A stretch of DNA of 25,736 nt. Origin: a virus. Taxonomy: Duplodnaviria; Caudoviricetes. The stretch spans positions 1-25,736 of IMG/VR virus record IMGVR_UViG_3300035676_000530. One strand, given 5' to 3'. The notes beneath the pieces were generated by a model. The model was given only the letters and a program-made list of their open reading frames with translations. It searched no databases and was not told the DNA's origin. The position numbers and the translations under genes were made by a program. Shown piece by piece: positions 1 through 20,472 of this stretch; the stretch's first letter is position 1; each line of letters begins with the position of its first letter.

Positions 1-156
1 CAGGGGCGAGAGCCTCCGCCCACGATGAACGAGTTATCGTAACCGACACTTTCGCCCATTCTACGATGCGGCGCACGGGCGCTCTTCGTTTAAGTTACCA
101 TGCCTCCGGTAACCCCCTCTTTGGCCTCCTTTCTGGCTATCTGCCAGACGAGTACC
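1..156 (-). ncRNA. structured RNA directly downstream of tRNA-Thr, cut by the window edge; family unassigned
   Basis: Starts 2 nt after tRNA-Thr. Hairpins CTGGC-AGATA-GCCAG, GTTACC..GGTAAC, CGCCCGT..ATGGGCG and GGGCG..CGCCC. GC-rich, no credible ORF. Confidence 0.55.
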
Positions 157-158
157 AA

Positions 159-230
159 AGCCACCACTGAGATTTGAACTCAGGACCCCCATCTTACCAA
201 GATGGTGCACTACCACTGTGCTATGGCGGC
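159..230 (-). tRNA. tRNA-Thr(GGT)
   Basis: Cloverleaf GCCGCCA..TGGTGGC. Anticodon arm CCATC-TTGGTAA-GATGG. T-loop TTCAAAT. No encoded CCA. Confidence 0.96.
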
Positions 231-233
231 AAA

Positions 234-305
234 TCGGGATGGCAGGGATTGAACCTGCGACTTCTTGCTCCCAAAGCAAGCATTCTACCGCTGAACTACA
301 TCCCG
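234..305 (-). tRNA. tRNA-Pro(TGG)
   Basis: CGGGATG..CATCCCG acceptor. Anticodon arm CTTGC-TTTGGGA-GCAAG. T-arm GCAGG-TTCAATC-CCTGC. Confidence 0.96.
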
Positions 306-308
306 AGT

Positions 309-466
309 GACCCCCAGGTTTGAGCTTTCGTGAAGAGGCTTAGGGGGTGTGCAGAGGGCGATCAACTCCTCCGGCCCAGGAAGGGTAACCCTGACCAGTG
401 CAGGAACCCAGAACTGGGACTTAGGGGCGAGATAAATCTCGCGAATGCCGCTGCAATGCAGTGGCA
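309..466 (-). ncRNA. series of hairpin and multiloop RNA modules upstream of tRNA-Pro
   Basis: Stems ACCCCC..GGGGGT, CTGGTC..GGCCGG enclosing AGGG-TTA-CCCT, CCCAG..CTGGG and GCGAGA-TTTA-TCTCGC. Boundaries uncertain. Confidence 0.4.
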
Positions 467-469
467 ATA

Positions 470-558
470 GGGAGTAGGCGGAGTTGCACCGCCATTGCTG
501 AAGAACGGAATCGAACCGCCTCTGACGCCGTCGCGCCCACCATCCAAGGTGCACTCCC
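470..558 (-). ncRNA. tRNA-like RNA with two T-arms and no anticodon loop
   Basis: 7-bp acceptor-like stem GGGAGTG/TACTCCC. Arms CACC-TTGGAT-GGTG, GGCGC-GACG-GCGTC, GGCGG-TTCGATT-CCGTT and GGCGG-TGCAACT-CCGCC. Confidence 0.65.
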
Positions 559-653
559 AGAAGGCCCCATTTAACACGTGAGACGCCTCAAGGACGAAAC
601 AGAGGTGGGGGCTCGTTTGCCGGTTTTCAACCGACCCCTGGAATGAAATCCAG

Positions 654-808
654 GATGCATCGTTCTCCCTCGGGCGATCCGAAGAACGCGGGACGGTGAT
701 TGCAGACCGCATTTGGAACGATGGCAACTGCCCGCCATCGCGACCCGGCAGTGGGTCAGCCCGATGCCGAAGCAGAGCGGGAACGCGAACCAGCAAGCTG
801 GCCGCACC
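654..808 (-). ncRNA. probable manA-motif RNA (multi-hairpin with kissing loops)
   Basis: Closing helix GGTGC/GCATC. Adjacent hairpins GACCC-ACTGCC-GGGTC and CGATGGC-GGGCAGTT-GCCATCG have complementary loops (ACTGCC/GGCAGT). Also a cUUCGg hairpin and a CGTTCTTC/GGAGAACG stem. The structure is seen directly; the manA name is from recollection of cyanophage tRNA-associated manA RNAs. Confidence 0.6.
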
Positions 809-897
809 ACACCGACAGAGCAGTGTGGGTGGTTGTTGGGCGAAGGAATAAACCCCCCTTTCGTTTAACGCTCGCTGACGGTGAAGCGAGAGCCCAG

Positions 898-980
898 TGA
901 GGCAGGTGCGGTATCTCCAGAAACAACCGACTTACATCGTTGATTCCGGTTCCCATGCTCCTTTTGCTTTCCTTACCTCA
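898..980 (-). ncRNA. small structured RNA directly downstream of tRNA-Asn
   Basis: Terminal stem TGAGGTA/TGCCTCA. Inner hairpin CCGGAA-CAAC-GAT-GTAA-GTC-GTTG-TTCTGG with a GNRA loop. Purine-rich internal loop. Confidence 0.55.
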
Positions 981-982
981 AA

Positions 983-1054
983 CTGGCGTAGTAGGATTCG
1001 AACCTACGACCGGACGGTTAACAGCCGTCAGCTCTACCGCTGAGCTATACGCCA
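983..1054 (-). tRNA. tRNA-Asn(GTT)
   Basis: TGGCGTA/TACGCCA acceptor. Anticodon arm GACGG-CTGTTAA-CCGTC. T-arm GTAGG-TTCGAAT-CCTAC. Confidence 0.97.
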
Positions 1055-1060
1055 TTGATA

Positions 1061-1146
1061 GCAGGAGGGATTTCTATGTGCGGACAGAATCACCTTTCAC
1101 ATTTCCAAGCTGGGTATCAACCTGGCAGCGGTGTTGCACTTCCTGC
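1061..1146 (-). ncRNA. tRNA-sized small RNA between tRNA-Leu and tRNA-Asn
   Basis: 86 nt closed by GCAGGA/TCCTGC. Begins 2 nt after tRNA-Leu and ends 6 nt before tRNA-Asn. No cloverleaf. Confidence 0.55.
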
Positions 1147-1148
1147 AA

Positions 1149-1229
1149 TGCCCAAGAGAGGACTTGAACCTCCATGCACAAGGCACATGATCCTAAGTCA
1201 TGCGTGTATACCAATTTCACCACTTGGGC
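1149..1229 (-). tRNA. tRNA-Leu(TAG)
   Basis: GCCCAAG/CTTGGGC acceptor. Anticodon arm CATGA-CTTAGGA-TCATG. Long variable arm. T-arm GGAGG-TTCAAGT-CCTCT. Confidence 0.96.
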
Positions 1230-1253
1230 AGTAGTTTCAATTTTCAAGGTTCA

Positions 1254-8557: not shown

Positions 8558-9613
8558 TCAGAGAGCGTTTCCTCGAGGGAGAATTTCCTCCGGGAACATA
8601 AAGTTCTCGTGAGGTTGATCTACTGGTGCCATCCACGCTCTAAGCCCTTCGTTAAGAAGGATATTCTTCGTATAGAACGTTTCAAACTCAGGGTCCTCAG
8701 CCGCTCTAATTTCCTGCGATACAAAGTCGTAAGCACGCAAATTAAGAGCAAGACCGATGATGCCAATAGAAGAAGTCCAGAGACCCATAACTGGAACGAA
8801 AAGCATAAAAAAGTGCAACCAACGCTTATTGCTAAACGCAATACCAAAGATTTGAGACCAAAATCGGTTAGCCGTAACCATGGAATAGGTCTCTTCTTCT
8901 TGAGTTGGTTCAAATGCTTTGAAAGTATTTGCCTTGTCGCCATCTTCGAATAATGTGTTTTCAACTGTTGCTCCGTGAATTGCACAGAGTAGAGCTCCCC
9001 CAAGAATACCAGCAACTCCCATCATATGGAAGGGATTGAGGGTCCAGTTATGAAAACCCTGAAGGAACAGAAGGAACCTGAAGATCGCTGCCACACCGAA
9101 GCTGGGAGCAAAGAACCAGCTGGATTGCCCCAGAGGATACATCAGGAACACGCTGACAAATACAGCGATAGGACCAGAGAATGCAATCGCATTATAAGGA
9201 CGAATACCAACCAGTCGAGCAATCTCAAACTGGCGAAGCATGAAACCGATTAGAGCGAAAGCCCCGTGGAGTGCCACAAAAGTCCAGAGTCCCCCAAGCT
9301 GGATCCAGCGAACGAAATCTCCCTGAGACTCAGGACCCCAAAGTAGAAGAAGAGAATGACCCATAGCGTCAGCAGGCGTCGACACAGCTGCTGTGAGGAA
9401 ATTAGCGCCCTCAAGGTAAGAAGACGCCAACCCGTGGGTGTACCAACTTGTAGCAAACGTTGTGCCAGTAAGCCAGCCACCAAGGGCCAAATAAGCAGTG
9501 GGAAAAAGAAGTAATCCAGACCAGCCCACAAAGACAAAGCGATCGCGTTTAAGCCAGTCATCCAGGACATCGAACCATCCTCTCTGTGGAAGTGTTAGAG
9601 TAGAAGCAGTCAT
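8558..9613 (-). CDS. psbD: photosystem II D2 protein
   Basis: [21 protein letters not shown] ... [10 protein letters not shown], full length. Confidence 0.99.
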
Positions 9614-9714
9614 AGTATAATGATAACCAGGAGTGGTACTGTTATAGTGAGAACACCGAGTAAAAAGCCCCCAATCGTTTGGATCAGGGGCAGTAGACTG
9701 TGAGAGTCAGACAT
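9610..9714 (-). CDS. 34-aa single-helix membrane microprotein between psbA and psbD (not in ORF track)
   Basis: [39 protein letters not shown] overlap with psbA and ATGA overlap with psbD. Confidence 0.7.
9662..9691 (-). terminator. intrinsic terminator after psbA, inside the microprotein ORF
   Basis: GCCCCTGATC-CAAAC-GATTGGGGGC-TTTTT. Confidence 0.75.
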
Positions 9715-10793
9715 TAACCGATAGTTGGAGCTGTTAGAGCAACGGGAGTGTTGCTAGCGGCTGCCAAGTCAAGCGGAAAATTGTGGGCATTCCTTTCGTG
9801 CATTACCTCAATACCGAGATTAGCACGGTTCAGAACATCAGCCCAGGTGTTGAGCACTTTACCTTGACTATCAACGATAGACTGGTTGAAGTTGAATCCG
9901 TTCAGATTGAACGCCATAGTAGATACACCAAGAGCGGTAAACCAAATACCCACGACGGGCCAAGCAGCAAGGAAGAAATGCAGACTACGAGAATTATTAA
10001 ACGAAGCATATTGGAAGATGAGACGACCAAAGTACCCGTGTGCGGCAACAATGTTGTAGGTTTCTTCTTCTTGACCGAACTTGTATCCATAGTTTTGTGA
10101 TTCATTTTCAGTAGTCTCACGAACCAGTGAGGAAGTAACCAGAGAACCGTGCATAGCACTGAACAGAGAACCGCCGAAGACACCAGCAACTCCAAGCATA
10201 TGGAATGGGTGCATCAGGATGTTGTGCTCTGCCTGGAACACAAGCATGAAGTTAAAAGTACCAGAGATACCCAGAGGCATACCGTCAGAGAAAGAACCCT
10301 GGCCAAAAGGATAAACCAGAAAAACGGCGCTCGCAGCAGCTACCGGAGCAGAGTAAGCAACACAAATCCAAGGACGCATACCGAGGCGGTAGCTAAGCTC
10401 CCATTCCCGTCCCATATAGCAAAAAATGCCGATGAGAAAGTGGAAAACAACCAACTGATAGGGGCCACCATTGTAAAGCCACTCATCGAGAGAAGCAGCT
10501 TCCCAAATTGGATAAAAGTGAAGTCCAATGGCATTGGAGGAAGGAACAACAGCACCGGAAATAATATTATTACCGTACAAGAGAGAACCAGCAACGGGCT
10601 CACGGATGCCGTCGATGTCAACGGGGGGAGCGGCGATGAAGGCGACGATGAAACAAACAGTTGCAGCAAGCAACGTCGGAATCATGAGAGTACCGAACCA
10701 GCCAACATAAAGACGATTGTTGGTGGAGGTTACCCATTCACAGAAAGATTCCCAAGAATTAGAGCGGGAACGAGTAAGAGTAGAAGAAGTCAT
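9714..10793 (-). CDS. psbA: photosystem II D1 protein (Glu130 high-light type)
   Basis: [26 protein letters not shown] and [13 protein letters not shown]. No intron. Confidence 0.99.
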
Positions 10794-14652: not shown

Positions 14653-14862
14653 CTATTTCTTTTTACCCTCGATCTCGTTCACATAATCTTTTAATTGCAC
14701 TACTTGGTCAGCTAATTTGGTCATAATTAAGAGAGCTTCTGATAGAAATTCTTCAAGTTCCGCTCTGCTTAATTCGTGCAACCGTTTCTTAACTGACAGT
14801 ACCTTAAATTCTTTTTCTAGAGAAAGGGGTTGTACTTGAAAGGAATCATTCTCCGAAGCCAT
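14653..14862 (-). CDS. nblA: NblA-like phycobilisome degradation protein
   Basis: PLSLEKEF...LHELSRAELEEFL..M matches the NblA LSLEQQF...MSxxQAxxFL pattern and size. Confidence 0.7.
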   Translation of the reverse strand: MASENDSFQVQPLSLEKEFKVLSVKKRLHELSRAELEEFLSEALLIMTKLADQVVQLKDYVNEIEGKKK

Positions 14863-20271: not shown

Positions 20272-20472
20272 TCACCAAATGCCAGGAATCAGTTGACCCG
20301 TGGTGGCGTAAGCTCCGATTGCTGCCATTACGCCAAGCATAGCTAGACGACCATTCAGCATCTCTGCCTTTTCGTTGTGAGTGACACTATAATCTTTGTT
20401 AGGATCGACGTACATCTTCGGCTCTTTGGCCCACATGTTTTGTTGACCTTTCTCGTTAGTAGTGACTGTCAT
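20272..20472 (-). CDS. hli: high-light-inducible protein
   Basis: AEMLNGRLAMLG and TGQLIPGIW. Confidence 0.95.
   Translation of the reverse strand: MTVTTNEKGQQNMWAKEPKMYVDPNKDYSVTHNEKAEMLNGRLAMLGVMAAIGAYATTGQLIPGIW

What the first reader, a model, noticed from the sequence alone, without database searches (positions are those of the whole stretch)
470..558. tRNA mimic with two T-arms and no anticodon
Seen: a 7-bp acceptor-like stem stacked directly on a 5-bp arm with a 7-nt loop (GGCGG-TGCAACT-CCGCC), which is the 12-bp tRNA top half. It also has a GG-containing D-like arm, a tetraloop hairpin where the anticodon arm should be, and a second canonical T-arm (GGCGG-TTCGATT-CCGTT). Inference: it could be matured and CCA-tailed but cannot decode. 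Possible roles are a decoy for anticodon nucleases or tRNA-modifying toxins, or an interlocked T-loop platform like those in T-box RNA and RNase P that bind tRNA elbows.
Basis: partly seen in the sequence, partly recalled or inferred. Interest (0 to 1): 0.8.

Follow-up and report, generated by a model that had tools for sequence, protein, structure and literature searches.

The report
Double-elbow tRNA mimic of phages
Diverse bacterial viruses keep, mostly among their tRNA genes, a conserved gene for a predicted 90-base tRNA-shaped RNA with two T-arms and no anticodon, which likely folds into two tRNA corners and likely acts as a shape decoy for host proteins that grip tRNA.

Summary
Confirmed, on the minus strand (558-470), in a cyanophage tRNA/ncRNA array. 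It belongs to a widespread phage RNA family with no Rfam match and no paper found: acceptor, D-like arm, short hairpin without anticodon loop, T-arm 1, a GG linker, T-arm 2. One pattern gave 120 IMG/VR loci (88 distinct; 55 with a full 7-bp acceptor); only 4 clear copies lie in 185,579 bacterial and archaeal genomes. Acceptor, middle hairpin and both T stems covary. Key result: the window's odd terminal loop (G55) comes with a linker GG-to-AG change, seen in four lineages and matching the rule in ordinary tRNAs (11 of 11). So the terminal T-loop pairs with the linker as a normal tRNA elbow, not with the other T-loop. A second elbow (D arm with T-arm 1) is inferred, untested. No amino-acid identity or neighbouring protein is conserved; Ro60 is absent from 4 of 5 complete genomes. 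Four copies fill the spacer of permuted tmRNA genes. Best reading: a matured, uncharged shape mimic acting as decoy (function about 40%). This scan found the family before on another genome (e1-6178732).

The parts
470..558 (-). Whole double-T-arm RNA gene (89 nt plus discriminator T469; CCA not encoded, as in the window's four tRNAs)
   Evidence: model R1 scores it 108 bits, by construction
552..558 (-). Acceptor-like stem, 5' strand (7 nt)
   Evidence: pairs with 476-470; 3 of 7 pairs change on both sides in 21 close members
538..551 (-). D-like arm, 4-bp stem, loop TTGGAT; its GG is the inferred partner of T-loop 1
   Evidence: GG near the start of this arm in 68 of 68 members; stem invariant in close members; the contact itself is untested
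524..537 (-). Hairpin in the anticodon-arm position, 5 bp with a GACG tetraloop; no anticodon loop
   Evidence: 3 of 5 pairs covary; loop 4 nt in 47 of 68, 7 nt in 1 of 68
504..520 (-). T-arm 1 (internal), loop TTCGATT
   Evidence: 94.6% of cells paired in 68 members; loop TTCGATT in 56 of 68
494..503 (-). Unpaired linker acting as a stemless D-loop; carries AG at 499-498 where relatives carry GG
   Evidence: GG in 21 of 21 full-acceptor hits of a scan that did not select the linker, against 59 of 99 others; AG goes with G55 in T-loop 2
477..493 (-). T-arm 2 (terminal), contiguous with the acceptor 3' strand; loop TGCAACT with G55 at 487
   Evidence: 98.2% of cells paired in 68 members; G55 variant in 4 of 68
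470..476 (-). Acceptor-like stem, 3' strand
159..1230 (-). Surrounding array (context): tRNA-Leu 1148-1230, tRNA-Asn 983-1054, unannotated structured RNA 570-980, the element, module 350-469, abiF 310-347, tRNA-Pro 233-306, tRNA-Thr 159-230

Best explanation
It is a conserved phage gene for a predicted 90-nt tRNA-shaped RNA with two T-arms and no anticodon loop, which is likely cut out of the tRNA-array transcript by the host's tRNA-maturing enzymes, likely folds into two tRNA elbows, and likely serves as an uncharged shape decoy for a host protein that grips tRNA by its elbow or acceptor arm. Shown by comparison: the helices, the absence of an anticodon, and the coupling of the linker GG with the terminal T-loop (elbow 1, 12 bp from the 3' end as in tRNA). 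Inferred: (a) the D-arm GG pairs with the internal T-loop to give elbow 2, by elimination; (b) RNase P and RNase Z or exonucleases plus the CCA enzyme mature it (established knowledge that these read the acceptor/T top half); (c) it is not charged by one conserved synthetase; (d) the target is a tRNA-attacking defence effector or another tRNA-sensing host factor. I put the structural part at about 0.9 and the decoy function at about 0.4.
For: Family and structure. Elbow 1: among 68 members, 64 have U55 with linker GG, 4 have G55 with linker AG and no GG, and all 68 keep the D-arm GG. The window and L476 each have U55/GG relatives 7 changes away and differ from each other by 14, so the swap likely arose more than once. 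Ordinary tRNAs in the same loci: GG in 706 of 717 with U55, 0 of 11 with G55. tRNA-like handling: 28 of 68 lie within 15 nt and 39 of 68 within 300 nt of a tRNA. It fills the slot right after abiF in L154, L157, L182, L218 that tRNA-Pro fills in the window. It fills the intervening segment of permuted tmRNA genes in L172, L181, L183, L244. A 3' CC is encoded in 11 of 18 members whose neighbours encode CCA and in 1 of 14 whose neighbours do not (related sequences inflate this). Shape, not identity, is kept: discriminator A20/G20/C18/T10, first pairs vary, G3-U in 2 of 68. Phage-biased: 4 clear copies among 58 GTDB pattern loci against 120 IMG/VR loci. Precedent for tRNA-targeting defence met by phage tRNA 'as a decoy or supplement': PMC13096335, passages read.
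Against: No binding partner, phenotype or mature end is shown. The window's own element is not covered by RNA contigs. Elbow 2 could not be tested: no clean member with G55 in T-loop 1 among 20 + 23 loci. Three borderline RNAs do not fit neatly: L350 (G55 and linker AG, but also AG in the D-like loop), L411 (G55 in T-loop 1 yet GG in the D-like loop) and L419 (31 bits; U55 in T-loop 2, no GG in the linker). Most U55 members came from a pattern that demanded the linker GG; the unbiased sets are 19 distinct close members and 21 full-acceptor hits. The defence nucleases in the paper read here cut specific tRNA loops, which a mimic without conserved identity would copy poorly. A simple decoy does not need two elbows, and the family is usually single-copy.
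Confidence: 0.4

Rival explanations
1. Scaffold or tether: the matured RNA uses its two elbows to bind or bridge two proteins (phage or host), as Y RNA tethers Ro60 to PNPase.
For: Two separate recognition corners; T-loop 1 is more invariant than T-loop 2 (TTCGATT in 56 of 68 against 24 of 68), as if read by a specific partner; usually one copy per genome; Y RNA precedent (PMC4201824, passages).
Against: No recurring protein family among 77 flanking reading frames (flanks only 300-1500 nt); Ro60 absent from 4 of 5 complete genomes and about 94 kb away in the fifth.
Confidence: 0.22
2. Translation modulator: the RNA enters or binds the ribosome or its factors (EF-Tu, SmpB, L1 stalk) and alters trans-translation, stalling or the stringent response.
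For: The top half with a stemless D-like loop resembles the tRNA-like domain of tmRNA; four copies sit inside phage tmRNA genes; a tag-less tmRNA of phage DS6A is reported to inhibit host tmRNA (PMC11915505, passage).
Against: No alanine identity (G3-U in 2 of 68) and no conserved discriminator; the GG loop lies 3' of the internal domain, not after the acceptor 5' strand as in tmRNA (recalled architecture); full CCA encoded in only 5 of 18 where neighbours encode it.
Confidence: 0.18
3. Cis-acting punctuation or stabiliser: it only supplies RNase P and RNase Z cut sites, or a nuclease block, for neighbouring RNAs in the array.
For: In the window it separates two unannotated structured RNAs; two RNA contigs of one study stop at 570, 12 nt before its 5' end (one study, a weak hint at most).
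Against: It is kept, with compensatory changes, between tRNAs a few bases away (S-CREM1 tRNA-Phe and tRNA-Ile) and inside tmRNA spacers, where the neighbours carry their own cut signals; one elbow would suffice.
Confidence: 0.12
4. Interlocked T-loop platform: the two T-loops interdigitate, as in T-box or RNase P RNA, to bind tRNA elbows.
For: Two conserved T-loops in one small RNA.
Against: T-loop 2 position 55 covaries with the linker purine, as in a D/T elbow; there are two GG motifs for two T-loops.
Confidence: 0.04
5. Decayed or rearranged ordinary tRNA (type II, with T-arm 1 as variable arm), or a tandem duplication of a tRNA 3' end.
For: ARAGORN miscalls 12 of 68 members as tRNA-Ser, -Leu or -Asp; many GTDB two-T hits are such 3'-end duplications.
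Against: Compensatory changes in acceptor, middle hairpin and both T stems, no anticodon loop, two T-arms with unlike stems, and the same layout across very divergent sequences.
Confidence: 0.02

Closest known systems
tRNA (Rfam RF00005), phage-encoded
   Same: 7-bp acceptor stacked on a 5-bp T-arm; G18G19 to T-loop elbow with the same GG/U55 to AG/G55 swap; lies in tRNA arrays
   Different: No anticodon loop; second T-arm; the terminal T-loop's partner is a 3'-side linker, not the D arm; no Rfam or ARAGORN call at the window
YrlA, bacterial and phage Y RNA (RF02553; PMC4201824, passages read)
   Same: Non-decoding tRNA mimic with D and T arms, substrate of tRNA enzymes; one species is cut by RNase P and CCA-tailed
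   Different: YrlA has one T arm in the order T, acceptor-like stem, D and lies next to Ro60; here two T-arms, open acceptor, no Ro60 nearby, no RF02553 match
Phage T4 RNAC and RNAD (PMC3014915, PMC9697503, passages read)
   Same: Small RNAs of unknown role transcribed from a phage tRNA region
   Different: The corresponding region of the T4-like phage P922 (my assignment of that region rests on the probe sequence printed in PMC9697503 and on recall) shows one canonical T-arm and does not match model R1
tmRNA tRNA-like domain and tag-less tmRNAs (PMC11915505, passages read)
   Same: Acceptor plus T-arm with a stemless D-like loop and no anticodon
   Different: No G3-U70 alanine identity, no tag frame, different strand order, extra D/T domain; some members sit inside a tmRNA gene as passengers
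GOLLD and ROOL RNAs (bioRxiv 10.1101/2024.12.08.627333, passages read)
   Same: Structured phage RNAs of unknown function near tRNA islands
   Different: Those are 650-800+ nt; this is an autonomous 80-100 nt unit

Membership tests
tRNA (RF00005) | 7-bp acceptor stacked on a 5-bp T-arm with 7-nt loop | tested here: met
tRNA (RF00005) | Anticodon arm with a 7-nt loop | tested here: not met
   GACG tetraloop here; 4 nt in 47 of 68, 7 nt in 1 of 68
tRNA (RF00005) | Single T-arm whose loop contacts the D-arm GG | tested here: not met
   two T-arms; terminal loop covaries with the linker
tRNA (RF00005) | Aminoacylation | not testable with these tools
   no conserved discriminator or first pairs
YrlA / Y RNA | Encoded next to a Ro60 (TROVE) gene | tested here: not met
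   PF05731 absent from 4 of 5 complete genomes, about 94 kb away in the fifth; none among 26 window ORFs and 77 flanking frames
YrlA / Y RNA | Permuted order T, acceptor-like stem, D; match to RF02553 | tested here: not met
tmRNA tRNA-like domain | G3-U70 alanine identity and a tag frame | tested here: not met
   G-U at pair 3 in 2 of 68; no tmRNA call at the window
tmRNA tRNA-like domain | SmpB binding | not testable with these tools
   needs a binding assay
Interlocked T-loop platform (T-box, RNase P, L1 stalk) | Two T-loops interdigitate with each other rather than with a D-loop GG (recalled definition) | tested here: not met
   T-loop 2 position 55 covaries with the linker purine in four lineages; T-loop 1 partner untested
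T4 RNAC/RNAD | Lies in the phage tRNA region | tested here: met
   39 of 68 within 300 nt of a tRNA
T4 RNAC/RNAD | Sequence and structure homology | tested here: not met
   model R1 finds only tRNA-Tyr (28.5 bits, background) in T4-like P922
GOLLD / ROOL | Several-hundred-nt RNA matching the Rfam models | tested here: not met
   no match; members 80-100 nt

The most novel reading that the evidence does not exclude
A phage-wide class of two-elbowed tRNA mimics: a tRNA top half whose elbow is rebuilt from a stemless 3'-side loop, carrying a second D/T elbow where the anticodon domain would be. It is matured by the host's tRNA machinery, rides even in tmRNA spacers, and works as an RNA-only counter-defence that soaks up tRNA-attacking immunity proteins across many host phyla.
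Probability: 0.3. Interest if true: 0.88.

Novelty: new variant of a known kind. Interest (0 to 1): 0.66.

Why it matters
It is an unannotated, well-supported RNA family with a tRNA architecture I found nowhere in print, present in a cultured phage-host pair (S-CREM1 on Synechococcus CB0101), so it can be tested directly. The natural GG/U55 to AG/G55 swap maps a tertiary contact without a structure and gives ready rescue mutants. It bears on the old question of what the non-tRNA small RNAs of phage tRNA clusters (T4 RNAC and RNAD) do. If it is a decoy, it would be an RNA-only counter to tRNA-targeting immunity. In practice, tRNA finders miss it or miscall it as tRNA-Ser or -Leu (12 of 68).

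Tried and rejected
Exact window-derived pattern in IMG/VR: 0 hits. BLAST hits in Enterococcus phages and T4-like P922 were T-arm look-alikes, not members. L130 is a chance match. BLAST of two distant members against cultured phages found nothing or only S-CREM1. Scans for members with G55 in T-loop 1 or in both loops gave no clean member, so elbow 2 is untested. The MAFFT alignment of 68 members misaligns the 5' half; I used it only for the T stems. Expression: none of 15 listed runs holds half of the window's words. Four RNA runs cover 570-834 and 897-979 but not 470-558; absence there proves nothing. One contig each in two other RNA runs carries a relative at depth 4; in X11 it runs on past the 5' end of the element, and no silent stretch was laid, so DNA is not excluded and I do not count it as evidence. 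The promoter-like site at 1370-1342 is at chance level (1 against 0.8). No recurring neighbour protein. Literature: 0 papers for 'tRNA-like'+'two T-loops'+'phage' (32), 'two elbows' (79) and A18/G55 (57); only unrelated papers for six 'second/two/extra T-arm' phrases (82); some searches gave only the comparison papers cited or off-topic ones. The S-CREM1 paper (PMC9964418, passages) lists 24 tRNAs, abiF, wcaG, manA, glnA and has 0 occurrences of 'tRNA-like' or 'pseudo'. The library lacks most subscription papers, and I read no supplements; large ncRNA screens may list this motif in supplementary tables.

Full report
Setting. The window is a cyanophage contig: two photosystem II D1-family genes, ribonucleotide reductase, sigma factors, MazG and primase, all on the minus strand. 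Bases 159-1230 hold a minus-strand RNA array: tRNA-Leu, tRNA-Asn, about 410 nt of unannotated RNA, the finding, a 120-nt module, abiF, tRNA-Pro and tRNA-Thr.

Observation. Read 558 to 470 on the minus strand, the element has a 7-bp acceptor, a 4-bp D-like arm (loop TTGGAT), a 5-bp hairpin with a GACG loop, T-arm 1 (loop TTCGATT), a 10-nt linker, and T-arm 2 (loop TGCAACT) contiguous with the acceptor 3' strand. CCA is not encoded, nor in the window's 4 tRNAs. ARAGORN and Rfam do not call it. The lone fold is modest (z -1.90).

Homologs. BLAST against 50,697 phage records found one full match, unannotated, in Synechococcus phage S-CREM1, a few bases from tRNA-Phe and tRNA-Ile, with compensatory changes. 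A 5'-half pattern gave 11 IMG/VR loci, 10 of them members with two canonical T-loops. A middle-part pattern that leaves the D loop, linker and T-arm 2 free gave 40 loci (19 distinct); all 40 keep the D-loop GG, TTCGATT, the linker GG and U55 in T-loop 2. Without any filter on stems, the three free pairs of the T stems pair in 232 of 264 and 252 of 264 cells (shuffled means 127 and 112). A 7/7 acceptor is found in 55 of 88 (shifted control 3, shuffled mean 4.9, maximum 10). I picked 68 members by eye from these and later scans, dropping near-duplicates and non-members: T stems 96.4% paired with 198 two-sided changes, lengths 80-100 nt. In 21 close members all five helices pair in 99.3% of cells and 9 of 26 pairs change on both sides; the D stem is invariant there. 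A model built from those 21 alone scores 47 of the other 56 members at 30 bits or more, 7 lower, and misses 2; ordinary tRNAs reach 28.5-29.9 bits. In GTDB the same pattern gave 58 loci, of which 4 score above 43 bits and 1 is borderline; many of the rest are tRNA 3'-end duplications. Eight complete or large phage records that hold a member each have one clear copy; L218 has two in tandem.

No decoding, no shared charge. The loop in the anticodon position is 4 nt in 47 of 68 and 7 nt in 1 of 68. The discriminator is A in 20, G in 20, C in 18 and T in 10, and the first three pairs vary. ARAGORN overlaps 12 of 68 with inconsistent tRNA calls.

Which loop pairs with what. The window differs from its relatives at two positions together: the linker has AG instead of GG, and T-loop 2 has G55 instead of U55. 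In the ordinary tRNAs of my loci (770 distinct, 738 parsed) the D-loop GG is present in 706 of 717 with U55 and in 0 of 11 with G55, which show AG. I scanned for two-T RNAs with G55 in the terminal loop without constraining the linker (92 viral and 33 metagenome loci). The clean members found, L348, L475 and L476/L499, all have linker AG and keep the D-arm GG (the model was given 95 of the 168 loci from the four G55 scans). The window and L476 each have U55/GG relatives 7 changes away and are 14 apart, so the swap likely arose independently. In a scan that did not select the linker (a sample of about 830 stretches), 21 of 21 hits with a full acceptor have a linker GG against 59 of 99 others. 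The terminal T-loop therefore behaves as the partner of the linker: a normal tRNA elbow, 12 bp from the 3' end, built from a stemless loop. This argues against interlocked T-loops. By elimination the D-arm GG pairs with T-loop 1, in the usual D, hairpin, T order, giving a second elbow; no clean G55 variant of T-loop 1 was found to test it. Against or unclear: L350, L411 and L419, borderline RNAs that do not follow the scheme neatly.

Context. 39 of 68 members lie within 300 nt and 28 within 15 nt of a tRNA, with flanks of only 300-1500 nt in view. Four directly follow abiF, the slot of tRNA-Pro in the window. Four fill the intervening segment of permuted tmRNA genes, between CCA and the 5' acceptor strand; PMC11915505 (passages) reports one true tRNA in such a segment as a unique case. 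Being kept where neighbours have their own cut signals argues that the RNA is wanted for itself. No protein family recurs among 77 flanking frames; Ro60 is missing from 4 of 5 complete genomes and distant in the fifth. Expression of the element is not shown.

Mechanism. Shown by comparison: helices, no anticodon, elbow 1. From established knowledge: RNase P, RNase Z and the CCA enzyme read the acceptor/T top half, so the RNA is likely matured like a tRNA. Inferred: since only shape is conserved, even through the A18-G55 swap, the partner reads the elbow or top half. Since the family is nearly confined to phages and crosses hosts, the benefit is the phage's. A decoy for a tRNA-gripping host factor is my best guess (0.40); phage tRNA acting as 'decoy or supplement' against Septu is discussed in PMC13096335 (passages). 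Rivals: scaffold (0.22), translation modulator (0.18), processing punctuation (0.12), interlocked platform (0.04), decayed tRNA (0.02).

Comparison and novelty. It works like other anticodon-less tRNA mimics (YrlA, PMC4201824 passages; tmRNA tRNA-like domain; T4 RNAC and RNAD, whose roles PMC3014915 and PMC9697503 call unknown, passages) but fails the membership tests for each. No Rfam family matched the element itself in the window or in 40 member loci, and the searches found no description; subscription papers and supplements were not seen. What my own calls establish here is the breadth of the family, the tmRNA-spacer copies and the covariation that fixes elbow 1. Verdict: real, undescribed as far as I can search, a new variant of a known kind; interest 0.66.

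Noticed in passing
window 570-980 (-): About 410 nt of unannotated structured RNA between tRNA-Asn and the element. Blocks are near-identical in L127 with different insertions; RNA contigs of two studies cover parts of it (DNA not excluded); no Rfam match. Earlier notes e1-6143022 and e1-6016001 describe look-alikes as chains of modules.
   Followed up: partly
window 350-469 (-): Hairpin-rich 120-nt module between the element and abiF, 97% identical in L127, fold z -2.54, no Rfam match.
   Followed up: partly
window 310-347 (-); L154, L157, L182, L218; L314 1232-1268: abiF RNA is followed within about 5 nt by a tRNA or by the double-T element in several phages, suggesting abiF's 3' end is set by RNase P.
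   Followed up: no
L172 562-648, L181 and L183 563-647, L244 290-374: Phage permuted tmRNA genes (alpha- and beta-type matches) whose intervening segment is filled by a family member.
   Followed up: partly
L315-L394 (e.g. L318, L319, L378, L381): A different, frequent phage RNA with several T-arms in series, U55 and G55 loops alternating, without this family's acceptor; not matched by model R1 in the loci given.
   Followed up: no
L105 103-190, L008, L021: RNAs that start like tRNA-Leu (full D arm) but carry a second T-arm in place of the anticodon domain; possible sister family or origin. L105 scores 35 bits.
   Followed up: no
L060, L061, L081, L095, L096: Another recurring phage RNA with two T-loops 33 nt end to end, followed by a GTGCAA hairpin.
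   Followed up: no
L425: A phage locus with three tRNAs (Met, Asp, Pro) that all carry G55 and lack the D-loop GG.
   Followed up: no
L218 165-256 and 287-378: Two family members in tandem after abiF, one close to the window type (102 bits) and one diverged (44 bits).
   Followed up: partly
window 8558-10793, 14653-14862, 20272-20472 (-): Two photosystem II D1-family genes in tandem (359 and 351 aa; the shorter is probably D2, by recall), a weak NblA-like ORF and an hli-like ORF.
   Followed up: no
window 1-158 (-): GC-rich non-coding stretch after tRNA-Thr with 73% similarity to L127; possibly another RNA module.
   Followed up: no
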